In this document: one piece after another, positions 32,463-59,972 of the stretch
How the letters are laid out: each line of letters opens with the position of its first letter
How positions within the stretch are numbered: position 1 is the stretch's first letter
NCBI GenBank assembly: GCA_965218785.1
Contig: OZ244650.1
Span: 604,110-668,109 of the forward strand
Source: Nitrosopumilus sp.
Lineage (GTDB): Archaea > Thermoproteota > Nitrososphaeria > Nitrososphaerales > Nitrosopumilaceae
DNA length: 64,000 nt
Reading direction: 5' to 3'
Translations under genes and position numbers: made by a program
Notes under the pieces: generated by a model
Told to the model about the DNA's origin: nothing
Databases searched by the model: none
What the model saw: the letters and a program-made list of their open reading frames with translations, nothing else

Positions 32463-34045
32463 CTTTTGATATCTCCAAAACTGCAATTCCCGTCTCCCCT
32501 GGAATATACCTGATGAGGGATTCTGATGAAAATATCATCTATATTGGCAAGGCAAAGAATCTGAAAAACCGTGTAAGATCATATTTCCTGAAAAACCAGA
32601 ACTACAAAACCCAGAAACTAGTAGAAAACATCTCTGATATTGAATTTGTCCTGACTAATAATGAAAGCGAGGCATTTCTTTTGGAATCAAACATGATAAA
32701 AAAACACCGCCCTAAATTCAACATTGAATTAAAAGATCAGCAAAGATACACATATCTTCGAATTTCTGATGAAAAATACCCCAGACTGCTGGTGGCCAGA
32801 AGGACCAGGGATGGAAGATTTTTAGGCAAAGGTCAGACATTCGGACCGTTTACCCAGGGCAGCTCCAAACTGCTTACAATTGGCACGCTAAGAAAGGCAT
32901 TTCAAATTAGAATCTGCAAGACCCTTCCAAAAAAGGTGTGTCTGGAATACCATCTGGGGAACTGTGAGGGTCCGTGTGAATTCAAAGACGCACAAAAAAG
33001 GTACCCCCAGCACGTTGCCGCACTAGGAGACGTTCTAAAGGGGAAAAACCAGGCCCGAATTTTTGCCAAAAAGCTAGAAGAAGAGATGCGTAATGCCGCT
33101 AAAATCCAGCAGTTTGAGCGTGCAAAAGACATACGTGATACCCTGATCCGGCTTGCAAGTCTTCAGACCAAACAAAACATGGAATATGTAAAAAACTCTG
33201 ATGAGGAATATTTTGGCATACAGATACAGGAGCACTCTGCCACAATCATGAATTTCAGGATGATTCACGGCGTGATTCGAGACAGTGACAAGTTCTTTTT
33301 TGATCTAGTCGGGGACAACTCTTTTTCAAACTTTCTTTATCAGTATTACACCACACATACAATCCCGAAATTCATCCTTGTAAACACGATTCCCGGTAAT
33401 TACAAATTACTGGAATCCCTGCTTTCTGAACAGGCCGGATTCACCGTCAGAATCCAGGTTCCCGCCCGTGGGAAGAAAAAAGACATCCTGAATCTGATTT
33501 TAAAAAATATCAAGCTGATTCATTCAAAAGGTGGAGATCCCGGAGTGGCAGAATTAAAGGAGATACTAGGCATGTCTGTGACACCCAGGGTCATTGAATG
33601 TTTTGATATCTCAAACCATGGTGCGGACTTTGCAGTGGGGTCTATGGCCAGGTTTGTAGACGGGCAGCCAAACAAATCAGGATACAGAAGATTCAAAATC
33701 AGGACCGTATCTGGCAGAGACGACTATGCAATGATTGGGGAGATTATCAAGCGAAGATATTATCGGTTACTGGAGGAAAACTCGGAGCTTCCTGATCTGA
33801 TTGTAATAGACGGCGGCCGGGGGCAGCTAAACGCAGCTTTGAGATCCCTAGAATCACTTGGATTGGATCTTCCGTGTATTTCATTGGCCAAAGAAAATGA
33901 GGAGGTATTTGCCCCGAGGAGCAAAAACCCCATAGTAATTCCGAAAAACAAACCCTCCTTGAAAATCTTACAGCATGCCCGGGATGAGACTCATAGATTT
34001 GGAGTCGCATACAATAGAACCATTAGAAAAAACAAAATAAAATAA
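32459..34045 (+). CDS. uvrC: Excinuclease ABC subunit C
   Basis: GIY-YIG (GIYLM..YIGKAKNL), CFDISN, IDGGRGQL, DETHRF. Confidence 0.95.
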   Translation: MTFDISKTAIPVSPGIYLMRDSDENIIYIGKAKNLKNRVRSYFLKNQNYKTQKLVENISDIEFVLTNNESEAFLLESNMIKKHRPKFNIELKDQQRYTYLRISDEKYPRLLVARRTRDGRFLGKGQTFGPFTQGSSKLLTIGTLRKAFQIRICKTLPKKVCLEYHLGNCEGPCEFKDAQKRYPQHVAALGDVLKGKNQARIFAKKLEEEMRNAAKIQQFERAKDIRDTLIRLASLQTKQNMEYVKNSDEEYFGIQIQEHSATIMNFRMIHGVIRDSDKFFFDLVGDNSFSNFLYQYYTTHTIPKFILVNTIPGNYKLLESLLSEQAGFTVRIQVPARGKKKDILNLILKNIKLIHSKGGDPGVAELKEILGMSVTPRVIECFDISNHGADFAVGSMARFVDGQPNKSGYRRFKIRTVSGRDDYAMIGEIIKRRYYRLLEENSELPDLIVIDGGRGQLNAALRSLESLGLDLPCISLAKENEEVFAPRSKNPIVIPKNKPSLKILQHARDETHRFGVAYNRTIRKNKIK

Positions 34046-34064: not shown

Positions 34065-34655
34065 TTAGCTGACTGTAACACTACCAATCATCCATGGATG
34101 AACTATGCAGAAATAATCATAGCTGCCTGAATCCTCAAAGGTCTGTGACCAGGGATCAGCTGCTGGCAACATTAGATCACTGTGAAATACCTCTAATTTT
34201 GCATCTGTTGCTATTCCCGCACTTACTGTGTGCACTGCTGTGTCGGCGTTGGTCCATGTTACTGTATCTCCAGCGTTAATTGTGATATCTGCTGGTATGT
34301 AGCATTCGTTGGTTTCCTGACATCCTTGAACACTTGTACCTAGTGGAATCTCGACATCATGTGTTTGTGGTCCTGTTGATTTTTCAGTCTTTTTCATAAC
34401 CACGTCTTCACCAAACTCAATACTGGATCCTTCCATGATCATACCATCTGTCATCATTGCATCTTTTTCTTTAATGTCAACCTTCGACTCTTCATATGGG
34501 TCTGTTTGGGTGTCTTGCTCCAAAGTTCTAGTTGGTTCATCTAGAGAAGTATATGATGACGTATCTTGTGTGGAATCTCCATATAATGCAATTCCTACAC
34601 CTATGGCGGCAATTGCAATACTAAATACAACTGCTGCCTTGTCTATACTTGCCAT
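34065..34655 (-). CDS. Membrane-anchored cupredoxin (plastocyanin/azurin family)
   Basis: N-terminal TM segment; Cu ligands in VHTV and YFCIVHPWM. Confidence 0.88.
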   Translation of the reverse strand: MASIDKAAVVFSIAIAAIGVGIALYGDSTQDTSSYTSLDEPTRTLEQDTQTDPYEESKVDIKEKDAMMTDGMIMEGSSIEFGEDVVMKKTEKSTGPQTHDVEIPLGTSVQGCQETNECYIPADITINAGDTVTWTNADTAVHTVSAGIATDAKLEVFHSDLMLPAADPWSQTFEDSGSYDYFCIVHPWMIGSVTVS

Positions 34656-35809: not shown

Positions 35810-36745
35810 TTACTTTGTAGATGGTAATACTCTTACATACGCATTGCCGTTGTGATTTTCAATAATCTTCACAATTTTAGTTTGCTGAAACGTGATATTG
35901 GTTGCATGGAATACTGATAATACCAAGTCCTGAAGTCTTTGATCATCTTCCAGATCAATAATTTTTAGTCCTAAATCTTTGCCTGTACTTCTTACTATGT
36001 GCCTGGAATGACTCTTGAAAACACCATGTGATGAGAGTGTCTTTGCTATACTGTGTCCTCTTGATTCTGCATCTGGTTCATTACCGAACATGTATGTTTT
36101 CAGCCAACGTCCCACAAGATCTTCGGATAATTGTATCGCATTACTACATTGTTGGATCAATCCGGGGCTGTATTGACTCAATAATGGTAGCCATGCACCC
36201 ATCTTTTCTGGCTCATTTTTGGAAATCTTTTGAGCTGCTGTAAACTCATCTAGTATTACTTGTGCTGGCGTCATTTTTATTCCAAATTGAGTTGGAAGTA
36301 ATAACTGCGGATCAATTGGACCCAATGATGATTGTTTTCCCATTACCAATTGATTGGATGAGCATGCAAGCATGGTGGCAGCTGACATGGCTGCTTGTGG
36401 TATTATAACCCGTATATCATCAAATTTTTCACGCAGATACAACACAATTGATTCTACTGCCTCGGCAGAACCACCTGGACTGTGTAGTATTAAGTCTAAT
36501 TCTTTGGTCTTCAAACCATACACTGTTTCCATAAATCCCTGTAGATCTTCATTTGTTATTGAAAATACACCGGCAACAGATCCTGCCGAAGGAGATGTCC
36601 AATTGGATGCATACAAGATTGTATTTCTTTTTGTATATTGATTTAATTCGATTAGATATTTGCGGCGTATATTGTCAAAAGGTGGCTTGCCTGTTGTTTT
36701 AATAGATTCCTGAACCTCACTTAATATTTCTCCCCAGCTTGGCAT
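35810..36745 (-). CDS. SDH-family ClpP-fold serine protease (DUF114-like)
   Basis: LDLILHSPGG, AMSAATMLA (Ser), LGPIDPQ (Asp), FKSHSRHI (His). Confidence 0.85.
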   Translation of the reverse strand: MPSWGEILSEVQESIKTTGKPPFDNIRRKYLIELNQYTKRNTILYASNWTSPSAGSVAGVFSITNEDLQGFMETVYGLKTKELDLILHSPGGSAEAVESIVLYLREKFDDIRVIIPQAAMSAATMLACSSNQLVMGKQSSLGPIDPQLLLPTQFGIKMTPAQVILDEFTAAQKISKNEPEKMGAWLPLLSQYSPGLIQQCSNAIQLSEDLVGRWLKTYMFGNEPDAESRGHSIAKTLSSHGVFKSHSRHIVRSTGKDLGLKIIDLEDDQRLQDLVLSVFHATNITFQQTKIVKIIENHNGNAYVRVLPSTK

Positions 36746-38520: not shown

Positions 38521-41500
38521 ATGACGATTCTACCTATTGGCCTGCTTGCAATACTTTTTGCATTCTCTGCAGGACTGGTACTATCTGATGCGAATGCCCA
38601 GACTGCTGTCCTGTCTGAAATAGACTCATTTGCCCTTCCAGATAACGGATACCGGCACAACCTGATACATCTTAGCGACGAATTTTACGTCTCCTCACAC
38701 ACTGCAATTCATACTTCTGCAACAGATGAGAATGCTTTATCATCTGTAGTCTACCTCAGACTATACACCATAATTAATGGGGAGATCAATCTGATTCGCG
38801 ACCTTGCAGTAACACCCACTGGAGGTGGTTCCGAGTCCACAGTCCGTTCAGAAACAGAGAACCCAAATTCTACTGGTCTTGCACGCGTAGATGTTGATAG
38901 ACTTGCATTGTCATATACCTCTAGTGGAACAAATATTATTCGAACATATAATGTTACAATTTCTAGTCCTAATCCTGACTTTGTACGGGATAAGCAACGT
39001 GTCTTTCAATCCGTAGGAGATGCAAATAATCACTCTCTGGTAGCACTTGATAAAGAAACGTTGGTACTTTCATATTCGCTGCCTGATGGTAGTCCTGACG
39101 GCTATGTTCAACTTTTCTCTATTCCTCATTCGGGTATTACACTGGATCTTGAGAACACTCTCCGGTATACCGACATACAGGGACGGTATCCATCCTTGGT
39201 AAAACTGGATGATGATAGGGTGGTACTTGCATACAGAACTGTGAGAGCCCAGGTATATATTCAGACCGTTGATATTGTGACCAATGATATGGCCAATGAT
39301 ACACTTAATGCTCGCCTTGCTTTTACGACTATTGATTCCGATGAAAGAACGGCGTACAACTCTCTTATCCGGGTGGATGATAACACCGTGGCCTTGGCAT
39401 ACTCTAGGATTGGTATGAGTACGAACCTGGGCGACGGGGATGGCAGGATCCGCGTCTTTGATGTTGCTGACACAACTGGTGCCATTAGTTCAACTGGTAG
39501 TGGTGCTGTATTTTATGATGACGCTGAAACGGCAGGATCCGAGGAACGCATACACCTCAGCTCGCTGGCACTGCTGGACTCTGATACAATTGCAGTCGCA
39601 TACAGGGGTGAAGGTGGAGCCGGCTTTATCCGATTATATGATATAGCCAGTAATGGTGCTTTGACTGCCAATGGTGAACCATTAGAACACGACTCGGCAA
39701 ACGGTGCGTTCAACTCACTTATCGCGATAGATGATACCACACTGGCACTCGTGTATGGAGGGGATCTTGCTAGGACTGATTTGTCAACGTCCTCTGAAGT
39801 TCCCAACACCATCAAGCTATTTAGTACGGTTTCAGATGTGATGCCGCCAACCATACTTTCTGCCGAGACCACTGATAGTAACACAATCGTGCTTACGGCA
39901 TCAGAACTCCTTGAAGGAATGGCGAATATCGGAGACTTTACCGTTTCTAGCAGTACTCTTTCGGGTCATACTGTTTTTCCCAATACTGTTACTGCTGCTG
40001 AAATATCTGGCAGTACCATAATCCTGACTACAGGCACGGTAATTTCCGGCGGTACTATTACGATTGCAGTGGAATACCGTGGTAACTCCATAACTGATGG
40101 TGTAGGAAACGCACTTGCGAGATTTACCGATCAGTCCGTGAGCAACCGCGAGGTCGGCGTACCAATCATAACTAGCGTATCGGCAACACCTGGTACCTAC
40201 AAAATAGGTGATACCATCGACATCACCGTAACGCTTAACACGTCAGTATTTGTATCAAATTCAAACGGACGACTGGAACTGAATTTTGGCACTATTACTA
40301 GAGAGGTACCCATTTCCTCAAGTGTTACTAATAGTAATACTATTACCTTGCCATTCCCGTATACGGTTGCTACAGGAGATACTTCTGCTAATCTAAATTA
40401 TGTCGATACAAACTCGTTTCTAGGTTCTTCCGGTCACTTTACTGGTCCGGAAGGCCTTCTAAATCTGGCACTTCCTCCAACCACTTCAGCTGATTCGCTT
40501 GGCGGCTCTAATATAATAGTGACTGGTATTGCACCAATCATATCCACTGCTGTAACCACTGGTAGCACCACAATCGTACTTACGGCATCAGAGGCCCTTA
40601 CAGGAACTATTGCTACCGGAGACTTTACCGTTGATGGCAATACCGTTATGGGTATACCTATACTATCTGATGGCACTACCATAACCATAACTGTGGACAC
40701 GGCAATTATCGGCGGCAATACAGTTACTGTGGATTACGGCGGTACCGCACTAGTTAATGCCGCAGGAAACGCACTTGCAACATTTGACGATCGCCCCGTG
40801 ACAAACAACGAGGCACCAATACCTGTCATAACTGACGTATCGGCAACAGGCGGTCCATACACCGCAGGTAATACCGTCCCCATTACCGTAACATACGACC
40901 TGGCAGTAAGAGTAGTTGGAAACCCAGAACTGTTGCTGGCTACTGGCGACCCTGTTGCTGGCACCCCTAATACACCGGCAGTCTATCATTCCAGTCCTAC
41001 TCCAACTACACTGCTATTCAATTATATGGTTGCTGCAACAGATAATTCTGCTGATCTAAATTATGTCGGTACAGACTCGCTTACACTAAGCGGCAGCGAC
41101 AGCATCCTGTCCACCGCTGATAGCGCAGTTGCCAGTCTGACGCTTCCTGACCCCTCTGTTAACTCCTTTGGGGGATCTAACATAGTAGTGGATAATGTGG
41201 CTCCTTTTCCATCTATAAATCGCGCTGTTCCTACCAATCCCACACTCCCGTTTGATATAGAATACGCTGTCCTGTTTTCAGAGCCTGTAACAGGTCTTAT
41301 GGCATCTGAAATTATGGTAACTGGAACAGCATCCGGTGGTTCCCCTGTAGTATCAGACTTTGTAGGAACCCCCCCTACCGACAGGTACACCTTTAATGTG
41401 GAAATCACCGCTGATGGTACAGTCGAAGTAACGATTCCTGCAGGTGTGGCAATGGATCGGGTAAACATCGGCAATACAGCATTATTAACATCAGTCATCG

Positions 41501-44500
41501 ATACAATTGATACTACGGCACCTTTCTACCGTTCTGCTGTAACCACTGATGCAAACACGATTACAATTACAGTATCAGAACCCCTTGACGAAAGTGTTGA
41601 TGCTGTTGCCTCAGACTTTAGCGTTACATCCAACGGCATTGCCAACGGCCTTACCGCCCTACCTGAAATAAATGACAATATCATAACCCTAAGGGTAGGC
41701 ACGCCAATTCTCGGCGGTCATGCGATTACAGTGCAATATTCTGGTATGAATCTAATTGATGCAGCAGGTAACGCACTTGAGATCTTTACAAGGAATCCGA
41801 CAAACACCTTGGATGTTCCAACAACTCCTGCCGTAACTGGGGTAACTGGACTAGGCGGTTTTTACTTTTCGGGTTTCTCCATTGACATCGAGGTAACATT
41901 TGACGAGGCAGTAACCGTATCTACAGAATCTGGAATCCCGCGAATAATCCTGGATACTGGTGTTACTGGTGGTACAGCAGTCAACTATGTCAGAACCGAG
42001 AGTGGTGGAACTGTCTTGGTATTCGACTATTCAACTGCCCCCGGACACAATTCTGAGAAACTCAACTATGTCAACACGGGCTCCCTCATACTAAACGGCG
42101 GAAGCATAAATGCCGCTGATGATGCTAATCCTGCCGATCTGACACTTCCTGCAGTTGCTTCTACAGCATCACTTGGCAACTCTAACATAGTGGTGGATAC
42201 TGTAATACCCAGTGTAACCATATCCTCTGATAACCTCCTCACAAAATCTCGCAGCATCACATTTACTGCCGAGTTTACAGAGGACGTGACAGGCTTTGTT
42301 GATACTACAAATGATATCGTGGTATCTGGTGCGGCAACAACTGTCACAACAATAACTCCCGTTAACGGCACCCATTACGACTTTGTTGTGGATGCCACCG
42401 CTGATGGCGCAGTCACCGTATCCATCCCCGCAGATGCGGCAATGGATAGGGCAGATAACGGCAATACGGTATCTGACCCATACACCATCACAGTCGATAC
42501 TGTAGCACCCACCGTGACTATATCTACTGATACCGCTAATGGCGGCTCGCAAAACACCAACACAATATCATACAATGTCGACTTTAGCGAGGGAGTCCAC
42601 GACTTTGTCGAAGGTGATATTACCGTAACTGGAACGGCGCCCTTTGGTACACCCGCAATAAGAAACTTTAATGAAGTCGGTCCAGAAGAGTATACGTTTG
42701 ACGTGGTAACCACCGATAATGGTACAGTCCTGGTAACGATTCCCGCAGGTGTGGCAACAGATGATGCGACCAACGGCAACGAGGCATCTGCCACATATAC
42801 TGTCACAGTTGATGATGACATACCCACTGTCACCATAAGCGCTACTGACAGTGCTGGCACTGCTACCGCTAATGGCGGCTCGCAAAACGACAACACAATA
42901 TCATACACTGCCACCTTTAGCAAGCCTGTAACAGGCTTTGAAATAGATGATATCACGATATCTGGATCAGCACCACTTGGTACGCCTGCAGTAACAAACT
43001 TTGATATAACAAACGCACCCGAGTATACGTTTGACGTGGTAACCACCAATGATGGCACAGTCCTTGTATCCATCGCGGAAAATGTGGCAGCAGATACGGC
43101 AGGCAACGGCAACGCGGCATCTGGCGTATATACCGTTACAGTTGATAATGTCGTACCCACCGTGATGCTGGGTTCTACTACTACTGCAGTTGATGGCGGC
43201 TCGCAAAACACCAGCATAGCATCCTACACTGTCATGTTTAGCGAGGATGTCGAGAACTTTGTCGAAGGTGATATCACAGTAACTGGAACGGCATCAGGTG
43301 GTTCCCCTGGAGTATCAAGCTTTGCAGGAATCGGTGCCTCATACACCTTTAACGTGGAGACCAGCGCTGATGGTACAGTCGAAGTAACGATTCCCGCAGG
43401 TGTGGCAGCAGATGCGGCAGGCAACCTCAACACGGAATCCCTCATGCACACTATTACAGTTGATACTACCGTGCCAACTGTGGGGATAACCACTGATACT
43501 GCTAATGGCGGCTCGCAAAACACCAACACAATATCATACACTGCCACCTTTAGCGAGGCAGTCAACAACTTTGTCGTAGATGATATCACAGTAACTGGAA
43601 CGGCATCCGGCGGTTCGCCTACAGCAACAATCTTTGACGGAAGCGGTGCCTCATATACCTTTAACGTGGTAACCAGCGCTGATGGTACAGTCGAGGTAAT
43701 GATTCCCGCAAATGTGGCAACAGATACGGCAAACAACGACAACATGGAATCTGGCACATACACCGTCACAGTTGATACCCTCGCGCCTACCATCATGTCT
43801 GTGGAAACCACTGATAGTACCACGATCGTAATTACCGCATTAGAACCCCTTGCAGAAATTACTCCTACGGGAGTCTTTACCGTTACTGACAACACCGTTA
43901 ATGGCATTCCTACAATATCTGGCAGTACCATAACCATAATCGTTGGCACATCAATAGTGTTTGGAGACACACCTGAAGTAACATATGTTGGCACTGACCT
44001 AACTGATGTCGCCGGAAACGCACTTGAGGCGATTACCGACCGGACTGTAACAAACAACGTGCCAGTCGCTGGCGCGCCAGTTGTAACCGGCGTAGCGGCA
44101 CCGCCCGGTTCATACAAAGAGGGTGATACCATTAATATCACCGTAACATTTAACGAGGCAGTAACCGTATCTACAACATCTGGAACCCCGCAACTGACGC
44201 TGGAGACTGGTGATCCTGATGCGGTAGCTGTCTATACCCTCACCGGCTCTACTGGAACTGCCCTGATATTCGAGTATACGGTTGCTGCAGGAGAGAATTC
44301 TGCTGATCTCAACTATGTGAGTATAAACTCGCTTGACCTAAACGGCGGAACCATAGTTGCTGTAGCTCCCGGCGCTACTCCCGCATCCACGACACTTCCT
44401 GCTATTACCGCCGTTGAGTCACTTGGCGGCAGCTCTGCTGTAATTGTGGATACTATGGCGCCAACTGTAGTCATAACTAACATTCAAACCACTAATATCG

Positions 44501-47500
44501 GCGGCTTTTCCTCCTCCCGCGTCCTTACCTTCATTGCCACCTTTAGCGAGGAAGTCAACAACTTTGTCGTAGGTGATATCACGGTAGGTGGAACGGCTAC
44601 TGTCACAGCAGCAGCTAGCGTTATGCAACAACCTTTCGGAGACCGCTCCATATACACCATTGCTGTGACTGCCCCCGCTGATGGTACAGTCGTTGTATCA
44701 ATTCCCCTAAATGCTGCAGCAGATGATGCAGGCAACGGCAACATGGCATCTGACCCATACACCATCACAGTCGATACTGCAGCACCCACCGTAACCATAA
44801 CCGCAGATGATGTAAATGCTAACGGTTTCACAAACTCTGCTGCCATTACCTATAATGCCAAATTTAACGAGGTCGTGTCAGATTTTGATAACGCAAATGA
44901 TATTACACTAGGTGGTACGGCAACTGCAACTGTCTCAGCACCAACGGCCATTAACGGCACCGACTATACCTTTGTTGTGACTAGCACCGCTGATGCTACC
45001 TCCGCCAATGATGGCACCGTCGTCGTATCCATACCTGTAAATGCGGTATCAGATGCGGCAGGAAACAACAACGCGGCATCTGCCCCATATACTGTCACAA
45101 TCGATACCGTGGTATCCGGCGTGCAAATAACTACTATTACTGATAATGACGGAACACAAAACAGCAACACGATATCATACTCTGCAGTCTTTGGCGAGGC
45201 TGTGACAGGCTTTGATCTGGCAGATATTGACGTATCTGGAACGGCATCCAATAATGCACCTGTAGCATCAAGCTTTTCAGGAAGCGGGCTTTCCTACGCC
45301 TTTGACGTGGTGGTAGCCTCAGGCGATGGCACCGTCATAGTAAGGATTCCAGCAAATGTGGCAGTTGATAGGGCAGGCAACGGTCACACGGCATCTAACA
45401 CATACACAGTCACAGTCGATACTGCCCTACCCACCGTAGAGATAACCGCTGACGGTGTCGCTAATGGCGGCTCGCAAACCACCGACACTGTATCCTATAC
45501 AGCCACCTTTAACGAGGAAGTTGTGAACTTTGTAGTAGCTGATATTGAAGTATCTGGAACGGCATCCTTTGGTACACCTGCAGTAACAGACTTTGATGCA
45601 ACAAACGCGCCCGTGTATACGTTTGACGTGATGACCACCGATGACGGTACAGTCGTCGTATCAATCCCCGAAGGTGCGGCAACAGATGCAGGAACCAACG
45701 GCAACGTGGCATCCGGCGATCACACAGTCACAGTTGATACCAGCATACCCAGCGTAACTGGCGTAGCTGCAACAGGCGGCTCATACATGGCAAGCGACCG
45801 CATTGACATCATCGTAACATTTGACGAGCAAGTAGAGGTAACTGGCGAGCCAACTTTAACTCTGGATACCGGCGCAGTGGTAAGCTTTAATGCTTTCGTT
45901 GACACCAGCCGTCTCACCTTGCAATTTCCATATACCGTTACCGCAGGACAAAATTCTGACGATCTCAACTATGTGGATGTAGACTCACTTGACCTAAGCG
46001 GCGGAAGCATCACAGCATTTGATAACGGCATTCCTGCTAGCCTGTTACTTCCCGCAACCACCCTTGATGACTCACTTGGCGGCTCTGATGTAATAGTGGA
46101 CACTACCGCACCAAGATTCCTGTCTGCTCAGACCACCACTCCAAACACGATTGAAATTATCATATCAGAACCCCTTGATCAAACTATGACTGCAGGAACC
46201 TTTACCGTTGCCACCAATACCGTTTCTGGCACTCCTGTGATATCTGGCAGTACCATAACCATAACTGTTGGCATGGCAATAACGTCCGCAGACACGCTCA
46301 CAGTATCATACACAACTGACACCGGTGGTATAGCTGACATTGCCGGAAACGCACTTGAAACATTTGCTAATCCAGAGACCGTGACAAACAACGTGCCAGA
46401 CGCTACTGCACCAACTGTACTTAGCGTATCGGCACCGCCCGGTACCCACACCACCGGTGCCACAATTGACATCACCGTAGCATTTGATGAGGCAGTGGAT
46501 GTGACTGGCGTCCCGCAACTGACGCTGGATACTGGTGCTGTAGTTGACTATACCTCAGGCACGGGTGGAACTGACCTGCTATTCCAGTATACCGTTGCCG
46601 CAGGAGAGAATTCTGCTGATCTCAACTATGCCAATGTAAACTCACTTGCACTAAACAGCGGAACCATTAATGTCGCTGGTGGCACTACTGCTGTAAATCT
46701 GGTGCTTCCTGCAACCACCGCTGCAACATCACTTGGCGGCAGCTCTGCTGTAATTGTGGATACTACGGCACCAACTGTAACCATATCTAACGATCAAACC
46801 ACTAGTGACGGTGAGACTGCCACCACCCGCACCCTCGACTACACTGTCGAGTTTTCAGAGACTGTGACAGGCTTTGCCATGAATGATATCACAGTATCTG
46901 GGGCGGCAACCGCACCTGATGCTGCACCGGCCGGATCCGATGACACGTACACCTTTACTGTGACTGCCCCAGCCGACGGTACAGTCACCGTATCCATCCC
47001 CGCAGGCGCGGCAGCAGATGAGGCAGGCAACGACAACATTGTATCTGCCGATTATACAGTCATAATTGATGCCACCGCGCCAACCATCATGTCTGCTGCA
47101 ACCAGTGGTAGTACCACGATCGTAATTACCGCATCAGAACCACTTGCAGAAATTACTCCTACGGGAGACTTTACCGTTACTGACAACACCGTTAATGGCA
47201 TTCCTACAATATCTGGCAGTACCATAACCATAATCGTTGGCACATCAATAGTGTTTGGAGACACACCTGAAGTAACATATGTTGGCACTGACCTAACTGA
47301 TGTCGCCGGAAACGCACTTGCAGCGATTACCTCCCAGACTGTAACAAACAACGTGCCAGTCGCTGGCGTGCCAGTTGTAACCGGCGTAGCGGCACCGCCC
47401 GGTACACACAATGCGGGTGATACCATTGATATCACCGTAACATTTAACGAGGCAGTGGATGTGACTGGCACCCCGCAACTGACGCTGGAGACTGGTGATA

Positions 47501-50500
47501 CTGATGCGGTAGCTGACTATACCTCCACCGGCTCGACTGGAACTGCCCTGATATTCGAGTATACGGTTGCTGCAGGAGAGAATTCTGCTGATCTCAACTA
47601 TGTCGGTACAACCTCGCTTGACCTAAACGGCGGAACCATACTTGCTGAAGCTGACAGCGTTACTCCCGCATCCCTGACACTTCCTGCAACTACTGATGCC
47701 ACATCACTTGGCGGCAGCTCTGCAGTAGTTGTGGATGCTGTGGTACCAACTGTAACCATATCTGCCAGTGTCGATAATGACGGCAGCACAAACGACGGCT
47801 CTGTATTTTATACTGCCACCTTTAGCGAGGATGTAACCGGCTTTGATGTCGCAGCTGATATTACAGTATCTGGTACTGCAGCTGCAACCCTCACTACACC
47901 AACCGGTTCTGGCAGCACGTACACCTTTGCTGCAACTACCACTAATGGCGGAACAATCACAGTGTTGATTCCTGCAGATGCGGCAGCTGATACTGCCACC
48001 AACGGCAACACGGCATCTGCCACATACACCGTTACAGTAAACAGTTTATCCCAAATAAACTCACTTGACCTTACACCAGGCGGCTATAGGCACAACCTGG
48101 TACATTTCACCGGTGATTACTATGTCTCATCCCACACTGTAACTAGAGCCAATAGCGATGATGCGGCTCTCTGGAATTTTGACACTGTTCTTAACCTGTA
48201 CAGTATCATTGGCGGGGACATTACGTTGATTGGCAGTCGGACGGTTGAAACCCGAACTCAGGATAAAACCACGACGATTAACGAATTTACAACCCACCCA
48301 AGATCCACCGCTGTTACAGCTGTGGATGATGATACCATCGCAGTTACATATGTGGCCAGCAGTACCAGTCGTCTCAGAACATATGATGTTGATACCGCAT
48401 CTACCACTGCACCGTTTGGCACTTCTGTACTTACCTCCCTAGGAACTTCCGGTACTCTCACGCAGGAGCAGACGCACAACCACTCCCTGGTAACACTTGA
48501 TGCGACCAGGCTGGTAGTGGCATATTCGTATCCTGATGCCTCCACTACCAACTATATCCAGATTATCAATGTTGTTTCCGGTACCGGCGCTTTGACACCT
48601 GAAACTCCTGTGGAAATCACCGACACACTGGGACAGTACTCATCCCTGGTAAGACTCGATGGTAATACCGTGGTAGTTGCATACAGGGCTGATGCTAACG
48701 AATATGGATACCTGCGGGCATATAATATTTCAGCCGATAACACCATTGCTCCCGGAGATGCTGTTCAGATCGAGGGTTCCAGAATCGCGCACACCTCCCT
48801 TATCCGGGTGGATGATGATACGGTAGCTGTTGCATACTCTGCGCTTGGTCTTGATACATCCACGACTGACGGACAGGCAAACCTCAAGGTCTATAATGTT
48901 GACACAAATGCCGCCATTACCGGAGGTACCGGGGTTGCCAGTTCTGTATATTATGATGATGCCGTGGCAGATGTCACATTTGAAGAACATGCACATCTCA
49001 ACTCGCTGGCACTGCTAAATACTGATACGCTGGCAGTTGCATACAGGGGCGATGGCCCCGCAGGCAATGTTCGATTATACGACATAGACCTCTCAACAAA
49101 CGGCCTGACTGCCCGTGGCGAAGCATTCGTACATGACACGGTAAACGGTGCATTCAACTCGCTTGTCAGCATAAATGATGAAACACTGGCACTTGTATAC
49201 GGAGGGGATCTTCCATCTGTAATAGCAAACACTGACACTCCAAACACCATCAAGACACTTGCGGTTTTAGGTCCTGATACGACTGTACCAACCATCGTAG
49301 CTGCTGTAACTAGTGATGCGAATACGATCGTACTTACTGCATCCGAATTCCTTGCAAGAACTGCGGCTACCCCGGTCTTTACCGTACCTGGCAATGCAGT
49401 TACTGGTACTGTAATACTTGGAACTACCGTAACCATAACTGTGGATACCCAGATATCGCTCGGGGACACACCCACGATAAATTACGCAGTTGGTGGTGCC
49501 ATAACTGATGCTGCAGGAAACGCACTTGCGGCATTTGCTGCCCTGCCTGTGACAAACAACGTAGATGATGCCACCCGCCCAACTGCAATCATAACTAACG
49601 CTGATATCGCTGATGGCGACACCACACTTACTGACACCACCGCATCCTACACTGTCACCTTCAACGAGCCTGTGCCAGGCTTTGATGTGGCAGATATCAT
49701 AATATCCGGAACGGCATCAGGTGGTGCACCGGTACCATCAAACTTTGAAACTGCTACGGCAGACATCTCATACACCTTTGATGTGGTGACTACATCTGAT
49801 GGTACGGTAATAGTATCCGTACCTGAAAATGTGGCAGCAGATCCTGCAGGTAACCAAAACACGGCATCTAACACATATACCATCACAGTTGATGCGGAAG
49901 TACCTGAGATAGTATCTGCAAGGCTCTCCACTGATACAATCACCATAATCTACAGCAAACTAGTAACTACGGATGCCTCCCATTATGATGACGTAATGTC
50001 ACCTGCTGGCACGCCCCATACAATAGATTCGTTTATTGATGCCACTCCCGATGATGCCAATTACACTGTCATATCACTCATCCTCTCAACTACCCCAGCC
50101 GGAACCACTGCCACAATCGACATAGCTGGTCCAACAAAGACATCAGACTCTACATCGGCGCTCTCACCACTAGAAGACTATCCGGTAACAGCAGAAGTCA
50201 ACGTCGTACTTGACGCTACTGATAACCGCATCGCAGTAACTGATTTTGATTCCACCCTTGCCACAGTCAGATATCCAAGTACAGTCGATGCCACGCTGGA
50301 TTATTCATCACTGATAGACGGCGAATCAGTGACTCCAACTGCTACGACAAACACCGAGATTGTAGTAACTGCGACAGGTATACGTGGAGGGGACATACAG
50401 GTGACAATCCCTGCCACCACCACCTTTAGCTCTTCTACCTTTGATGGAATACTGATTCTGCCAACTGACTCTGGATCCGGCTGTGATTCCACTGCAATAA

Positions 50501-51456
50501 CTTCTGGTGCACAGGCATCCTGCATCGAGATAGGACAGGCAGGCTCTGTGATAAATACGGATAAACCGATACGGATACAGCTTGGAGGACAGGCAGGCAA
50601 CGTTCCATGGTACTCTCAGGGCGGTGCTGCAGCTACCCAGATAACTGCAGCGTGTACTGCCGATGATCTTACCCCTGTATCAGCGCAGCTTGACGGCACC
50701 GGGGAGTGCTTCATAAATACCAATCTTGACCTGATAATCTGGACTGCACACTTTACAGTATTTGGCTCAAACCTGGTAACACCACCACCGGTTGTTGTTG
50801 TTGCACCAGAATCAGAACCAACACCCGCATCCGAACCCGCTCCTAGAAGATCAGGCGGAGGAGGACACGGCAACACACTTGATCCACGTGTATGTGGCGG
50901 CGTACTGTGCAGTGAACAGGGATCTAACAACCAGTCTTCAGGCACCCCTTCAACTAGCAGGTCTTCAAGCGACCAAATCCGTACCGTACCACGTGTAACT
51001 CCTGAGCAAACACAGGAACCTGACAGAACACAAAATGGTGCAGATCCGGCACTTGGCACACCAGAGCCTGAACCATCCCCACTGCCAAAGACTCCAGAAC
51101 CAGGCTTAACGAATCCGGCACCCGGCTCTACTGTGGATCCAGAACCGGGCTCAACGAATCCGGCACCCGGATTACTTGTGGATCCAGAACCGGGCTCAAC
51201 GAATCCGGCACCCGGATTACTTGTGGATCCAGAACCGGGCTCAACTAGTCCTGCACCCGGATTACTTGTGGACCCAGAACCAGGCTCAACTAGTCCTGCA
51301 CCCGGATTACTTGTGGATCCAGAACCAGGCTCAACGAATCCGGCACCCGGCTCTACTGTGGACCCAGAACCAGGCTCTACTGTGGACCCAGAACCAGAAC
51401 AAGCCGATGGCATATTTGAACAGATTGGCAGATGGTTCACATCATTATTTGGATAA
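38521..51456 (+). CDS. Giant (4311 aa) secreted modular surface protein/adhesin
   Basis: Signal peptide; two 7-repeat beta-propeller-like blocks; ~28 Ig-like modules of three types; Pro-rich linker; amphipathic C-terminus. Confidence 0.9.
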   Translation: MTILPIGLLAILFAFSAGLVLSDANAQTAVLSEIDSFALPDNGYRHNLIHLSDEFYVSSHTAIHTSATDENALSSVVYLRLYTIINGEINLIRDLAVTPTGGGSESTVRSETENPNSTGLARVDVDRLALSYTSSGTNIIRTYNVTISSPNPDFVRDKQRVFQSVGDANNHSLVALDKETLVLSYSLPDGSPDGYVQLFSIPHSGITLDLENTLRYTDIQGRYPSLVKLDDDRVVLAYRTVRAQVYIQTVDIVTNDMANDTLNARLAFTTIDSDERTAYNSLIRVDDNTVALAYSRIGMSTNLGDGDGRIRVFDVADTTGAISSTGSGAVFYDDAETAGSEERIHLSSLALLDSDTIAVAYRGEGGAGFIRLYDIASNGALTANGEPLEHDSANGAFNSLIAIDDTTLALVYGGDLARTDLSTSSEVPNTIKLFSTVSDVMPPTILSAETTDSNTIVLTASELLEGMANIGDFTVSSSTLSGHTVFPNTVTAAEISGSTIILTTGTVISGGTITIAVEYRGNSITDGVGNALARFTDQSVSNREVGVPIITSVSATPGTYKIGDTIDITVTLNTSVFVSNSNGRLELNFGTITREVPISSSVTNSNTITLPFPYTVATGDTSANLNYVDTNSFLGSSGHFTGPEGLLNLALPPTTSADSLGGSNIIVTGIAPIISTAVTTGSTTIVLTASEALTGTIATGDFTVDGNTVMGIPILSDGTTITITVDTAIIGGNTVTVDYGGTALVNAAGNALATFDDRPVTNNEAPIPVITDVSATGGPYTAGNTVPITVTYDLAVRVVGNPELLLATGDPVAGTPNTPAVYHSSPTPTTLLFNYMVAATDNSADLNYVGTDSLTLSGSDSILSTADSAVASLTLPDPSVNSFGGSNIVVDNVAPFPSINRAVPTNPTLPFDIEYAVLFSEPVTGLMASEIMVTGTASGGSPVVSDFVGTPPTDRYTFNVEITADGTVEVTIPAGVAMDRVNIGNTALLTSVIDTIDTTAPFYRSAVTTDANTITITVSEPLDESVDAVASDFSVTSNGIANGLTALPEINDNIITLRVGTPILGGHAITVQYSGMNLIDAAGNALEIFTRNPTNTLDVPTTPAVTGVTGLGGFYFSGFSIDIEVTFDEAVTVSTESGIPRIILDTGVTGGTAVNYVRTESGGTVLVFDYSTAPGHNSEKLNYVNTGSLILNGGSINAADDANPADLTLPAVASTASLGNSNIVVDTVIPSVTISSDNLLTKSRSITFTAEFTEDVTGFVDTTNDIVVSGAATTVTTITPVNGTHYDFVVDATADGAVTVSIPADAAMDRADNGNTVSDPYTITVDTVAPTVTISTDTANGGSQNTNTISYNVDFSEGVHDFVEGDITVTGTAPFGTPAIRNFNEVGPEEYTFDVVTTDNGTVLVTIPAGVATDDATNGNEASATYTVTVDDDIPTVTISATDSAGTATANGGSQNDNTISYTATFSKPVTGFEIDDITISGSAPLGTPAVTNFDITNAPEYTFDVVTTNDGTVLVSIAENVAADTAGNGNAASGVYTVTVDNVVPTVMLGSTTTAVDGGSQNTSIASYTVMFSEDVENFVEGDITVTGTASGGSPGVSSFAGIGASYTFNVETSADGTVEVTIPAGVAADAAGNLNTESLMHTITVDTTVPTVGITTDTANGGSQNTNTISYTATFSEAVNNFVVDDITVTGTASGGSPTATIFDGSGASYTFNVVTSADGTVEVMIPANVATDTANNDNMESGTYTVTVDTLAPTIMSVETTDSTTIVITALEPLAEITPTGVFTVTDNTVNGIPTISGSTITIIVGTSIVFGDTPEVTYVGTDLTDVAGNALEAITDRTVTNNVPVAGAPVVTGVAAPPGSYKEGDTINITVTFNEAVTVSTTSGTPQLTLETGDPDAVAVYTLTGSTGTALIFEYTVAAGENSADLNYVSINSLDLNGGTIVAVAPGATPASTTLPAITAVESLGGSSAVIVDTMAPTVVITNIQTTNIGGFSSSRVLTFIATFSEEVNNFVVGDITVGGTATVTAAASVMQQPFGDRSIYTIAVTAPADGTVVVSIPLNAAADDAGNGNMASDPYTITVDTAAPTVTITADDVNANGFTNSAAITYNAKFNEVVSDFDNANDITLGGTATATVSAPTAINGTDYTFVVTSTADATSANDGTVVVSIPVNAVSDAAGNNNAASAPYTVTIDTVVSGVQITTITDNDGTQNSNTISYSAVFGEAVTGFDLADIDVSGTASNNAPVASSFSGSGLSYAFDVVVASGDGTVIVRIPANVAVDRAGNGHTASNTYTVTVDTALPTVEITADGVANGGSQTTDTVSYTATFNEEVVNFVVADIEVSGTASFGTPAVTDFDATNAPVYTFDVMTTDDGTVVVSIPEGAATDAGTNGNVASGDHTVTVDTSIPSVTGVAATGGSYMASDRIDIIVTFDEQVEVTGEPTLTLDTGAVVSFNAFVDTSRLTLQFPYTVTAGQNSDDLNYVDVDSLDLSGGSITAFDNGIPASLLLPATTLDDSLGGSDVIVDTTAPRFLSAQTTTPNTIEIIISEPLDQTMTAGTFTVATNTVSGTPVISGSTITITVGMAITSADTLTVSYTTDTGGIADIAGNALETFANPETVTNNVPDATAPTVLSVSAPPGTHTTGATIDITVAFDEAVDVTGVPQLTLDTGAVVDYTSGTGGTDLLFQYTVAAGENSADLNYANVNSLALNSGTINVAGGTTAVNLVLPATTAATSLGGSSAVIVDTTAPTVTISNDQTTSDGETATTRTLDYTVEFSETVTGFAMNDITVSGAATAPDAAPAGSDDTYTFTVTAPADGTVTVSIPAGAAADEAGNDNIVSADYTVIIDATAPTIMSAATSGSTTIVITASEPLAEITPTGDFTVTDNTVNGIPTISGSTITIIVGTSIVFGDTPEVTYVGTDLTDVAGNALAAITSQTVTNNVPVAGVPVVTGVAAPPGTHNAGDTIDITVTFNEAVDVTGTPQLTLETGDTDAVADYTSTGSTGTALIFEYTVAAGENSADLNYVGTTSLDLNGGTILAEADSVTPASLTLPATTDATSLGGSSAVVVDAVVPTVTISASVDNDGSTNDGSVFYTATFSEDVTGFDVAADITVSGTAAATLTTPTGSGSTYTFAATTTNGGTITVLIPADAAADTATNGNTASATYTVTVNSLSQINSLDLTPGGYRHNLVHFTGDYYVSSHTVTRANSDDAALWNFDTVLNLYSIIGGDITLIGSRTVETRTQDKTTTINEFTTHPRSTAVTAVDDDTIAVTYVASSTSRLRTYDVDTASTTAPFGTSVLTSLGTSGTLTQEQTHNHSLVTLDATRLVVAYSYPDASTTNYIQIINVVSGTGALTPETPVEITDTLGQYSSLVRLDGNTVVVAYRADANEYGYLRAYNISADNTIAPGDAVQIEGSRIAHTSLIRVDDDTVAVAYSALGLDTSTTDGQANLKVYNVDTNAAITGGTGVASSVYYDDAVADVTFEEHAHLNSLALLNTDTLAVAYRGDGPAGNVRLYDIDLSTNGLTARGEAFVHDTVNGAFNSLVSINDETLALVYGGDLPSVIANTDTPNTIKTLAVLGPDTTVPTIVAAVTSDANTIVLTASEFLARTAATPVFTVPGNAVTGTVILGTTVTITVDTQISLGDTPTINYAVGGAITDAAGNALAAFAALPVTNNVDDATRPTAIITNADIADGDTTLTDTTASYTVTFNEPVPGFDVADIIISGTASGGAPVPSNFETATADISYTFDVVTTSDGTVIVSVPENVAADPAGNQNTASNTYTITVDAEVPEIVSARLSTDTITIIYSKLVTTDASHYDDVMSPAGTPHTIDSFIDATPDDANYTVISLILSTTPAGTTATIDIAGPTKTSDSTSALSPLEDYPVTAEVNVVLDATDNRIAVTDFDSTLATVRYPSTVDATLDYSSLIDGESVTPTATTNTEIVVTATGIRGGDIQVTIPATTTFSSSTFDGILILPTDSGSGCDSTAITSGAQASCIEIGQAGSVINTDKPIRIQLGGQAGNVPWYSQGGAAATQITAACTADDLTPVSAQLDGTGECFINTNLDLIIWTAHFTVFGSNLVTPPPVVVVAPESEPTPASEPAPRRSGGGGHGNTLDPRVCGGVLCSEQGSNNQSSGTPSTSRSSSDQIRTVPRVTPEQTQEPDRTQNGADPALGTPEPEPSPLPKTPEPGLTNPAPGSTVDPEPGSTNPAPGLLVDPEPGSTNPAPGLLVDPEPGSTSPAPGLLVDPEPGSTSPAPGLLVDPEPGSTNPAPGSTVDPEPGSTVDPEPEQADGIFEQIGRWFTSLFG
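43815..44330. repeat. Near-identical intragenic duplicate of ~47109-47610
   Basis: Long exact matches at offset ~3294 bp, e.g. CTTTACCGTTACTGACAACACCGTTAATGGC...GCCGGAAACGCACTTG. Confidence 0.9.
51136..51396. repeat. 45-bp tandem repeat encoding DPEPGST(N/S)PAPG(LL/ST)V, 5 full copies plus partials
   Basis: Visible in both DNA and protein. Confidence 0.92.
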
Positions 51457-57599: not shown

Positions 57600-58300
57600 C
57601 ATCAAAATATGTTGTATTATATGAAAAGTACATCCGCTAGTCATCTGCATCATTCTCCATCCATTCTGGGTTGTTTTTTCTGATCGTATCTGTGGTCTTT
57701 TTGTTTCTAAACGCCATAAGCGGGGTTCATAGTTATCAATGTCAAGTGAAAAGTGCAGTCTTGACTCGTTGTAATAGTCTACATCTCCTTAAGAGTACGA
57801 TAATGGAATATCTCATCTTCTATCGTCCTGTGAAATCTCTCCAGCTTGCCGTTTGCCTGCGGATGATATGGTCTGGAATTTATCAGCACGATGTCTTTTG
57901 CCAAAAGCTCCTCCTCAAACAAGACAAGTCTCCATGTTCCATTTATCTGCATTTTTTTCCTGCCGTTTTGTCCCACAAAATACGAACCAGTATCTGAGAG
58001 TATGGATGCAGGTGCACCGAATCTCTTGATTGCCAGTCTGAGCAACATTACTGTATTCTCAGATGTGGCATTCTCTGCGGAGGATTCTTTAGCTACGGAA
58101 CAGCATCCTATGCAGTTTGATTCATCTGATCGCTATTGTGTAGTATGTCCGGAATGAATTTTAGTAAGATCCCATTTTCCTGTTTTTTGAACTGGATACT
58201 TGTGTTATAGATTCCATCTTTTTCCCCTAATGATTGGTTGTTTTTCTTGGAATATATGCCTTTCTGCTATATGTGGTATTCCCTGTACACCCGAATTTCG
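57600..58300 (-). mobile_element. Degraded IS481-like DDE (rve) transposase
   Basis: ILSDTGSYF, SRPYHPQANGKLERFHRTIE, then shifted YNESRLHFSLD; several frameshifts and stops. Confidence 0.8.
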
Positions 58301-58410
58301 TTTTTATTCAGATATGATTATTTTAGAACGGTACAATCTGTCTGAATGTTGAGAAATATCAAAATAAAATAAAGTAACATAAGTTTTGATCGTCACCATA
58401 TAATGAAAAA

Positions 58411-58686: not shown

Positions 58687-58687
58687 T

Positions 58688-59737: not shown

Positions 59738-59972
59738 GATTAAATTACTGATTTGGATAATAAATCATTATATATTTGATTCTGTATAATTTGGTAGATT
59801 TGAAATATAGATCTTCTCCAAATTGAAAATTTGTACCAAAGTTGAAAAATTAAGATGAGATATATCATTTGAATCTCTCACACCTGATATATTGTGTAAT
59901 CGTCATGTTTTCTGAGGATTGTCGAATTATGGTGGGGGATCGATCTCATTGTTTTAGGACAAGGACGATTTG

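What the first reader, a model, noticed from the sequence alone, without database searches (positions are those of the whole stretch)
38521..51456. 4311-aa mosaic surface protein with two beta-propellers and three interleaved Ig-like module types
Seen: signal peptide; two blocks of seven L..(L/V)D..T(L/V)A(L/V)AY repeats (~38600-39830 and ~48040-49270); about 7-8 modules resembling SwmB/SWM repeats (PTI.SA.TT.S.TI...D.AGNAL), about 7 of the GTY..GDTI.ITVTF...DLNY type, and about 13 Big-like modules (TVTI...Y.ATFSE.V..F...DGTV.V.IPA..A.D.AGN.N). It is Thr/Val/Ala/Asp-rich, Lys-poor and more GC-rich than the backbone. A second propeller near the C-terminal end is unusual. Inference: a long adhesin, lectin or anti-predation/anti-viral coat protein relevant to host association.
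Basis: partly seen in the sequence, partly recalled or inferred. Interest (0 to 1): 0.7.

Follow-up and report, generated by a model that had tools for sequence, protein, structure and literature searches.

The report
Giant modular surface fibril of Nitrosopumilus
This is a real, intact 4311-residue gene for a giant secreted protein of an ammonia-oxidising archaeon: a long rod of Ig-like modules carrying two seven-bladed propellers, one of a large, fast-changing family of such proteins, and probably a cell-surface binding fibre whose target has not been tested.

Summary
ORF 38521-51456 (+) encodes 4311 aa (439 kDa, pI 4.05). It has a signal peptide, two 7-repeat propellers and 27 beta-sandwich modules (7 A, 7 B, 13 C) in exactly the numbers reported. 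An independent long-read-style metagenome assembly carries the same 4311-aa protein at 99.75% identity with no gaps, so it is not an assembly chimera.

Domain assignments:
- C modules are Pfam Big_12.
- A modules are distant SWM_repeat (SwmB-type) domains.
- B modules, the propellers and the C-terminal region match no curated family.

The extra GC lies in codon positions 1 and 2. It reflects amino-acid composition, not foreign DNA.

New context:
- The closest species-representative genome, a Nitrosopumilus MAG, holds at least 13 giant paralogues, about 8% of its chromosome.
- They shuffle the same modules and have up to 7 propellers per ORF.
- They share a leader peptide, and every paralogue whose C-terminus was sampled ends in a proline-rich spacer and the amphipathic tag GIFEQIGRWFTSLFG.
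- That genome's orthologue is identical for 750 codons, then patchily divergent, with one extra module unit.

Most likely this is a C-terminally tethered fibre of roughly 0.1 µm used for binding or recognition. Ligand, anchoring, expression and any host association are untested.

The parts
38521..51456 (+). Whole gene, 4311 codons plus stop
   Evidence: The identical or 99.75%-identical protein occurs in independent assemblies.
38521..38598 (+). Signal peptide, aa 1-26 (MTILPIGLLAILFAFSAGLVLSDANA|QT)
   Evidence: The only hydrophobic peak of the protein. The leader is conserved in paralogues.
38602..39846 (+). Propeller 1, aa 28-442, seven blades
   Evidence: 7 motif copies. AF2 pLDDT 78.9 and pTM 0.84. 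Foldseek matches propellers only. No Pfam, NCBIfam or PDB sequence match.
39847..40161 (+). A module 1 (SWM_repeat-like)
40162..40533 (+). B module 1
40534..40821 (+). A module 2
40822..41205 (+). B module 2
41206..41517 (+). C module 1 (Big_12)
41518..41826 (+). A module 3
41827..42210 (+). B module 3
42211..43785 (+). C modules 2-6, a run of five Big_12 modules (42211-42519, 42520-42843, 42844-43176, 43177-43485, 43486-43785)
   Evidence: TRF finds periods of 312-333 bp.
43786..44076 (+). A module 4
   Evidence: AF2 pLDDT ~88.
44077..44475 (+). B module 4
44476..45747 (+). C modules 7-10 (44476-44799, 44800-45126, 45127-45444, 45445-45747)
45748..46107 (+). B module 5 (no preceding A module)
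46108..46407 (+). A module 5
46408..46785 (+). B module 6
46786..47076 (+). C module 11
47077..47367 (+). A module 6, part of a recent duplicate of unit A4-B4 (70-90% aa identity)
47368..47760 (+). B module 7
47761..48045 (+). C module 12
48046..49287 (+). Propeller 2, aa 3176-3589, seven blades, 35-54% identical to propeller 1
49288..49578 (+). A module 7
49579..49905 (+). C module 13
49903..50205 (+). Possible degenerate eighth A-like module (aa ~3795-3895)
   Evidence: Aligns end to end with the A HMM, but the score is 0 bits and not significant.
50398..50805 (+). C-terminal globular domain holding 4 of the protein's 6 cysteines (the other two, C4125 and C4130, lie just downstream in the spacer); motif DLIIWTAHFTVFG
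   Evidence: Cys positions. Conserved in paralogues and in P0162-P0165. No Pfam or NCBIfam match.
50806..51408 (+). Pro/Glu/Thr-rich spacer with a Gly hinge; includes a 45-bp x 6.3 tandem repeat (51093-51377) encoding PEPGSTNPAPGLLVD
   Evidence: Each paralogue has its own repeat unit.
51409..51453 (+). C-terminal amphipathic tag GIFEQIGRWFTSLFG
   Evidence: Ends every paralogue whose C-terminus was sampled, in 1-4 copies. The hydrophobic moment is among the top windows of the protein. No known CTERM model matches and there is no TM helix.

Best explanation
The gene encodes a 439-kDa, very acidic, Sec-exported protein of a Nitrosopumilus-type ammonia-oxidising archaeon. It most likely stands on the cell surface as a long monomeric fibre.

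Shown:
- a cleavable-looking leader peptide;
- a seven-bladed beta-propeller right at the mature N-terminus;
- a ~2730-residue rod of 25 beta-sandwich modules of three kinds: A (SWM_repeat-like), B (uncurated) and C (Big_12), arranged as A-B(-C)n super-repeats;
- a second propeller followed by one more A and one more C module;
- a Cys-containing globular domain, a proline-rich tandem-repeat spacer, and a 15-residue amphipathic tag at the very C-terminus.

Inferred:
- The tag and spacer hold the C-terminal end at the envelope, either at the membrane surface or on the inner face of the S-layer.
- The rod, about 27 modules of 3.5-4.5 nm each and so roughly 0.1 µm, pushes the N-terminal propeller far from the cell.
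- The propellers are the ligand-binding heads.

The gene belongs to a family of at least 13 giant paralogues in the closest reference genome. They share the leader and, wherever the C-terminus was sampled, the tail, but shuffle the modules. The family changes quickly through gain and loss of module units and through patchy sequence replacement, giving strain-specific surfaces. The target is unknown. It could be particles, other cells, a host matrix or viruses.
For: - Architecture and repeat counts.
- Propeller fold: AF2 pTM 0.84. Foldseek hits are propellers only, including the lectins PHL and PLL and viral surface or tail proteins, with TM up to 0.71.
- The same blades are fused to a phage virion structural protein in P0010, which fits a binding module.
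- Rod modules: Big_12 at 112 bits. The A module is related to SWM_repeat. The AF2 model of an A-B-C unit is all-beta and matches tandem Ig proteins.
- C-terminal end is cell-proximal. Every paralogue whose C-terminus was sampled keeps the spacer and tag (most also keep the Cys domain) while the N-terminal part varies. Distant relatives with the same propeller end in a TM helix (Nitrosopelagicus) or a sequence that reads as a T9SS sorting domain (Marinimicrobia, assigned by eye).
- Not an artefact, and under constraint. Independent assemblies carry the same 4311-aa ORF, and omega is 0.33 against the 99.7% allele.
- Rapid change. The OZ244579.1 orthologue is identical over codons 1-750, then 5-25% divergent in patches, and has an extra ~430-aa module unit.
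- The GC excess comes from composition only.
Against: - There is no evidence of expression. Run types are hidden and no RNA-labelled run was found.
- There is no TM helix and no known archaeal sorting signal, so attachment is inferred from conservation of a 15-residue tag alone. The protein could simply be released.
- Propeller similarity to lectins is at fold level only: TM 0.5-0.6 and ~10% identity. Equally good matches are enzymes, namely a PL42 lyase and sialidases.
- B and C modules are modelled with low to moderate confidence.
- The strict tag pattern gave only noise in the JGI metagenome collection, so the tag's generality is unproven.
Confidence: 0.6

Rival explanations
1. It is a protective or decoy coat rather than an adhesin. 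The family of long, acidic, hypervariable fibres shields the S-layer from viruses or grazers, and variation is driven by that arms race. The anatomy is the same as in the best explanation; only the purpose differs.
For: - Divergence from a near-identical genome is patchy and mostly nonsynonymous (omega ~1.1 overall), and the module number differs.
- The large paralogue family takes up ~8% of the chromosome.
- The same propeller occurs in phage virion and viral proteins.
- Giant ORFs in marine Synechococcus lie in variable islands whose genes are thought to act in grazer and phage avoidance (PMC2441476).
Against: - There is no functional data.
- omega ~1 can also arise from recombination with diverged alleles.
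- No donor tracts were found.
- The N-terminal propeller is perfectly conserved between the two genomes. That is the opposite of what is expected for the most exposed target of an arms race.
Confidence: 0.2
2. It is an alternative or accessory S-layer component. Its Ig-like modules would be built into, or lie on, the lattice, as in the acidic ten-domain Ig-like S-layer protein of N. maritimus.
For: - It is an acidic Ig-like array, like NmSLP (PMC11153153).
- Sponge-associated ammonia oxidisers have expanded, expressed S-layer protein sets that have been suggested to act in adhesion (PMC6790972).
Against: - Profiles of the A, B and C modules and of the propeller find no solved structure at E<=1. 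That includes no match to the deposited NmSLP.
- The protein is 2.5 times longer than NmSLP and carries two propellers.
- At least 13 paralogues with different lengths do not fit a regular lattice.
- N-glycosylation sequons are depleted 4-fold, whereas NmSLP carries 17 glycans.
Confidence: 0.1
3. The propellers are enzymes of the polysaccharide lyase, sialidase or lactonase type. The protein would be a tethered extracellular glycan-processing machine.
For: - The best PDB matches include a PL42 rhamnose-glucuronate lyase (TM 0.58-0.60) and sialidases.
- Paralogues carry Lactonase/SGL-type propellers.
Against: - Identity is about 10%, and WD40 proteins and lectins match about as well, so the hits are generic propeller matches.
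- No enzyme family matches in Pfam or NCBIfam.
- The organism is a chemolithoautotroph by lineage. This rests on general knowledge and was not tested here.
Confidence: 0.07
4. It is a SwmB-like motility protein, or else a misassembled or non-functional ORF.
For: The A modules are related to SWM_repeat. Short-read contigs break up inside the gene.
Against: - SwmB-type swimming is known only from cyanobacteria (PMC2441476).
- Only 7 of the 27 modules are of that type.
- Three independent assemblies agree on the ORF, and omega is 0.33 against the near-identical allele.
Confidence: 0.03

Closest known systems
SwmB of marine Synechococcus (giant repetitive cell-surface protein; Pfam SWM_repeat PF13753)
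   Same: Both are giant, repetitive, acidic surface proteins of a marine picoplankter. The A modules are distant homologues of the SWM repeat. The gene class is unevenly distributed between strains (PMC2441476).
   Different: This one is archaeal, not cyanobacterial. Only 7 of 27 modules are SWM-like. It has two propellers and a different C-terminal end. No link to swimming is known.
Periscope proteins (bacterial surface stalks whose repeat number varies between strains; PMC9704523)
   Same: It is a rod of tandem beta-sandwich domains between a terminal functional domain and a cell-proximal end. The number of module units differs between closely related genomes.
   Different: Most repeats here are only 35-65% identical and of three interleaved kinds, not near-identical copies. 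Anchoring is unknown. It is archaeal and has many paralogues.
Huge proteins of Thaumarchaeota with SGL/Lactonase propellers, noted in a UniProt survey (PMC11573180)
   Same: Same lineage and same class. Paralogues of this gene carry NHL, SGL and Lactonase-type propellers.
   Different: The window protein's propellers belong to a different, uncurated family. The survey gives no anatomy, anchor or family structure.
NmSLP, the Ig-like S-layer protein of Nitrosopumilus maritimus (PMC11153153)
   Same: Same genus. Both are acidic arrays of Ig-like domains on the cell surface.
   Different: There is no detectable sequence relationship. This protein has no lattice-type architecture, is depleted in sequons rather than heavily glycosylated, and has propellers.
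Giant propeller-headed surface proteins of Marinimicrobia and Nitrosopelagicus (loci L017-L027)
   Same: They carry the same propeller family, at or near the N-terminus in the loci whose N-terminus was sampled (Marinimicrobia L022/L023 and the ~745-aa Nitrosopelagicus proteins L017/L018/L020), at 25-35% identity.
   Different: Their anchors differ: a sequence read by eye as a T9SS C-terminal domain, or a TM helix plus cytoplasmic repeats. They lack the GIFEQ tag.

Membership tests
Pfam Big_12 (PF19078) bacterial Ig-like domain | HMM score above the gathering threshold (27 bits) | tested here: met
   112.2 bits, E 1.6e-32, 8 stretches. 13 C modules are found with the gene's own HMM.
Pfam SWM_repeat (PF13753), SwmB-type repeat | HMM match of the A modules | tested here: inconclusive
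   Not listed for the whole protein at E<=0.01. Three of 7 single modules match, best E 4.3e-5. The A profile retrieves PF13753-annotated proteins and a 'SwmB domain-containing' protein. hhalign gives 98.6%, E 5.6e-16. This makes the A module a distant relative, not a clean member.
SwmB functional class (non-flagellar swimming) | Required for swimming in a cyanobacterium, together with SwmA | not testable with these tools
   The host here is archaeal, and no motility data exist.
Periscope proteins | Repeat number varies between closely related strains | tested here: met
   The OZ244579.1 orthologue has an extra ~430-aa module unit beside an identical 5' 2.2 kb.
Periscope proteins | Tandem repeats of very high identity forming a single-type stalk | tested here: not met
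   There are three interleaved module types. Most copies are 35-65% identical, and only one A-B unit pair reaches 70-90%.
Periscope proteins | Covalent or defined attachment to the cell surface | not testable with these tools
   Only a conserved C-terminal tag is seen.
Thaumarchaeal S-layer protein (NmSLP type) | Sequence relationship to the solved NmSLP | tested here: not met
   Profiles of A, B, C and the propeller give no PDB hit at E<=1 other than noise.
Archaeal C-terminal sorting signals (PGF-CTERM, PEF-CTERM, PEFG-CTERM and similar) | Signature motif, then a TM helix, then a basic tail; NCBIfam model match | tested here: not met
   No NCBIfam hit for the whole protein or for the last 150 aa at E<=10. 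No hydrophobic window outside the leader.
Beta-propeller lectins (PLL/PHL type) | Seven-bladed propeller with sequence or site similarity to the lectin family | tested here: inconclusive
   The fold matches (TM 0.52-0.53) but identity is ~10-11%, and enzymes and WD40 proteins match as well.
LVIVD-repeat or other curated propeller repeats (Pfam) | HMM match | tested here: not met
   No propeller family matches at E<=10 apart from a BNR_4 trace at E 0.19.
RTX/T1SS giant adhesins | RTX nonapeptide repeats and a C-terminal T1SS signal | tested here: not met
   Pfam lists only Big_12. The lineage is archaeal.

The most novel reading that the evidence does not exclude
The shared leader, the proline-rich spacer and the GIFEQIxxWFxSLFG amphipathic tag (1-4 copies) define a previously undescribed surface-display route in ammonia-oxidising archaea. 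It would tether a lineage-specific arsenal of giant, propeller-headed fibres without a TM helix or any known sorting signal.

The arsenal takes up about 8% of the genome. It diversifies by module shuffling and patchy replacement while avoiding N-glycosylation sequons, giving each strain its own recognition surface.
Probability: 0.3. Interest if true: 0.75.

Novelty: new variant of a known kind. Interest (0 to 1): 0.55.

Why it matters
Ammonia-oxidising archaea are usually pictured as small cells with streamlined genomes and a plain S-layer. Here a close relative of the window's genome spends about 8% of its chromosome on giant fibres with binding-type heads, and those fibres differ even between nearly identical genomes.

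If the proteins are made and displayed, they are the obvious candidates for how these archaea attach to particles, partners or hosts, or how they evade viruses.

Three parts have no curated family and are concrete targets for structure and binding work:
- the propeller;
- the B module;
- the C-terminal tag.

The tag could reveal a new way for archaea to hold proteins on their surface.

Tried and rejected
- Whole-protein self-BLAST returned only the identity hit. I replaced it with chunked BLAST.
- NCBIfam found nothing for the whole protein, the tail, the leader, the propeller or the B module.
- PDB sequence profiles for the propeller and the A, B and C modules gave only noise.
- The look-up of encoding contigs had no record for P0002.
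- Laying short-read Logan contigs on the gene gave fragmented unitigs and paralogue joints. They could confirm neither contiguity nor expression, because run types are hidden and depths are inflated by repeats. A search restricted to RNA-labelled libraries found none.
- The degenerate DNA pattern for the C-terminal tag in JGI metagenome contigs gave 14 hits, all noise.
- The search for donor tracts for the divergent patches, among the sampled paralogues and within the gene, found none above 82% identity for four of the five patches tested; the fifth matched only its own orthologous position, at 91%. Templated gene conversion is therefore unproven.
- The C-terminal-region homologue search found only 4 proteins.
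- Foreign origin of the gene, suggested by its higher GC, is rejected because GC3 equals the backbone.
- OZ244579.1 as the window's own genome is rejected. Its orthologue differs and its upstream flank is not syntenic.
Full report
**1.

- The ORF listing gives a single ORF at 38521..51456 (+), 4311 aa, with an ATG start.
- The protein is 439 kDa with pI 4.05. It has T 16.1%, A 10.6%, V 10.3%, D 7.9% and K 0.4%, and 487 acidic against 99 basic residues.
- The only strongly hydrophobic window is residues 1-21. It is followed by SDANA|QT, a signal-peptide-like leader that recurs in paralogues.
- A regular expression for the blade motif hits exactly seven times in aa 48-412 and seven times in aa 3193-3560, and nowhere else.
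- Chunked self-BLAST, alignments and HMMs built from them give 7 A, 7 B and 13 C modules. The order is P-AB-AB-C-AB-C5-AB-C4-B-AB-C-AB-C-P-A-C, followed by a ~510-aa C-terminal region.
- A possible eighth A-like module at aa ~3795-3895 is not significant.
- No other ORF of the window contains these modules.

**2. It is not an assembly artefact**

- The exact protein is recorded on a 1.99-Mb contig.
- A 4311-aa copy with 99.75% identity and no gaps lies on an independent contig, ERZ25071859 ctg31757_45x_l. It has the same downstream genes, citrate synthase and a DHH phosphoesterase.
- A 4048-aa member that matches the window protein exactly over 4045 aa lies on a 178-kb contig.
- The contig name looks like that of a long-read metagenome assembler. 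That is my reading, not a tool result.
- Against the 99.75% allele there are 14 synonymous and 13 nonsynonymous changes, omega 0.33. This is weak evidence of purifying selection on the intact ORF.
- Short-read unitigs break up in the repeats and say nothing either way.

**3. Organism and context**

- The neighbours are housekeeping archaeal genes: SRP54, archaeal Pus10, ThiD-ThiN, UvrABC, a plastocyanin-like protein, citrate synthase and TrmB. There is also a 124-nt intron-bearing tRNA.
- The closest species-representative genome is a Nitrosopumilus sp. MAG, OZ244579.1, 2.36 Mb.
- The higher GC of the gene (0.49) lies in codon positions 1 and 2 (0.544/0.514, against ~0.47/0.35 in neighbours). 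GC3 is 0.408, within the neighbours' range. It follows from the Thr/Ala/Gly/Val/Asp-rich composition and not from foreign origin.

**4. The parts**

*Propellers.*
- The AF2 model of propeller 1 has pLDDT 78.9 and pTM 0.84, with about 30 strands.
- It matches only propeller folds in the PDB: a PL42 lyase at TM 0.58-0.60, sialidases, WD40 proteins and the lectins PHL and PLL, all at ~10% identity.
- It matches predicted viral proteins somewhat better (TM up to 0.71), among them phage 'hemagglutinin' and tail-fibre-like proteins.
- No Pfam, NCBIfam, PHROG or PDB sequence family matches.
- An exhaustive profile search finds 1376 cluster representatives at E<=1e-3 and 102 at E<=1e-30. The profile also covered the adjoining A module, so these counts are upper bounds for the propeller.
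- One relative, P0010, fuses the blades to a phage virion structural protein domain, phrog_384, E 5e-12.

*C modules.* These are Pfam Big_12 at 112 bits.

*A modules.*
- They are distant SWM_repeat domains. Three of 7 copies hit PF13753, best E 4.3e-5.
- The A profile retrieves PF13753-annotated proteins and a 'SwmB domain-containing' protein.
- hhalign against those gives 98.6%, E 5.6e-16.
- A is modelled confidently as a beta-sandwich, with pLDDT ~88.

*B modules.* They have no family, only marginal Big_5 hits in 2 of 7 copies. They are modelled as all-beta with low confidence. The A-B-C model matches tandem-Ig proteins.

*C-terminal region.*
- It consists of a globular domain, a Pro-rich spacer with a 45-bp x 6.3 tandem repeat, and the tag GIFEQIGRWFTSLFG. 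All six cysteines of the protein lie in this region: four in the globular domain and two just downstream of it.
- There is no TM helix and no known CTERM sorting model.
- The tag has one of the highest helical hydrophobic moments in the protein.

**5. The family**

- In 261 kb sampled around propeller matches, OZ244579.1 holds 13 giant open frames of 2170 to more than 8853 aa.
- They sum to about 65,000 codons, or ~195 kb, which is ~8% of the chromosome. Seven lie between 205 and 318 kb.
- Their architectures are shuffles of P, A, B and C, with 1-7 propellers per ORF. They also carry NHL six-bladed propellers (Pfam E 5e-42), Lactonase/SGL-type propellers and long Thr/Asp/Ser repeat tracts.
- Every paralogue whose C-terminus was sampled ends in a Pro-rich repeat of its own followed by one to four copies of the tag. 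In the sampled DNA the tag occurs only there.
- Distant relatives place the same propeller at or near the N-terminus of giant proteins, in the loci where the N-terminus was sampled. Those proteins end in a TM helix (Nitrosopelagicus) or in a C-terminal sequence that reads as a T9SS sorting domain (Marinimicrobia). I assigned the latter by eye, not with a tool.
- This is the basis for reading the C-terminus as the cell-proximal end and the N-terminal propeller as the distal head.

**6. Variation**

- The OZ244579.1 orthologue is identical over codons 1-750, with only 4 nucleotide differences.
- It then becomes patchily 5-25% divergent, with mostly nonsynonymous codon changes. NG86 omega is 1.08 over aa 1-2857, and dS ranges from 0.001 to 0.30 between segments.
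- It carries an extra ~430-aa module unit, and its upstream flank is not syntenic with the window.
- I found no donor tracts for the divergent patches among the sampled loci.
- Recombination with unsampled alleles or paralogues and diversifying selection therefore cannot be separated.
- The pattern meets one defining feature of 'periscope proteins', repeat-number change between close strains (PMC9704523). It does not meet the near-identical single-type repeats.

**7. Mechanism**

- Most likely (0.6) this is a Sec-exported, C-terminally tethered fibre of roughly 0.1 µm whose propellers bind a target.
- The length assumes 27 modules of 3.5-4.5 nm each and is inferred.
- Tethering by the amphipathic tag, the ligand and expression are all inferred.
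- The rivals are a shielding or decoy coat (0.2), an S-layer component (0.1), a tethered enzyme (0.07), and motility or artefact (0.03).
- Nothing here shows a host association. The sources of the runs are coded.

**8. Comparison and novelty**

- Giant repetitive surface proteins are a known kind. Examples are SwmB (PMC2441476), periscope proteins (PMC9704523) and huge thaumarchaeal proteins with SGL/Lactonase propellers (PMC11573180).
- New here are the uncurated propeller and B-module families, a tail with no TM helix or known sorting signal, the size of the paralogue family in an ammonia oxidiser, and the mosaic divergence.
- I rate it a new variant of a known kind, with interest 0.55.

Noticed in passing
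window 38521-51456; OZ244579.1 paralogues in L001-L014: N-x-S/T glycosylation sequons are strongly depleted: 14 observed against 60 ± 6 in shuffles. All 13 paralogues are depleted 1.3-4-fold. Eleven pooled cytoplasmic neighbours are not (31 against 32). The repeats are not independent, but the trend holds across the whole family.
   Followed up: partly
P0010 (487 aa, from a Logan assembly): A phage virion structural protein domain (phrog_384, E 5e-12) is fused to blades of the same propeller family. The propeller model's best structural matches are predicted viral proteins (TM up to 0.71).
   Followed up: partly
window 6146-6269 (-): Rfam finds a 124-nt tRNA (43 bits) that ARAGORN in bacterial mode missed. 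Its length suggests an intron-bearing archaeal tRNA.
   Followed up: no
L013/L002 (OZ244579.1 214635-229517) and L005, L008: Paralogues contain recurring ~283-aa NHL six-bladed propellers (Pfam E 5e-42), Lactonase/SGL-type propellers, a ~1000-aa tract of 'TDTPAISD / SDSPVLSDTASL' repeats, and poly-Gly hinges of up to ~14 Gly.
   Followed up: partly
L001:1-8703 compared with window 1-37302: The 8.7 kb upstream of the orthologue in OZ244579.1 has no similarity to the window's upstream region. The gene's first 2.2 kb and ~1.2 kb of its upstream spacer are nearly identical, so there is a rearrangement breakpoint next to the gene.
   Followed up: partly
window 14001-16000 and 58001-60000: Two low-GC stretches (0.32 and 0.29, against ~0.40) contain ORFs with no Pfam match (14793-15692, 59131-59592).
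   Followed up: no
window 38521-38598 and paralogue leaders: The family's signal peptides have no Lys or Arg in the n-region (MTILPIGLL..., MMLLSLAGLL...). They share the cleavage-like motif SDA(H/N)A|Q.
   Followed up: no
window 27698-34045: A complete uvrB-uvrA-uvrC cluster lies upstream. A plastocyanin-like copper protein (34065-34655, -) and an SDH-type ClpP-like protease (35810-36745, -) lie between it and the giant gene.
   Followed up: no
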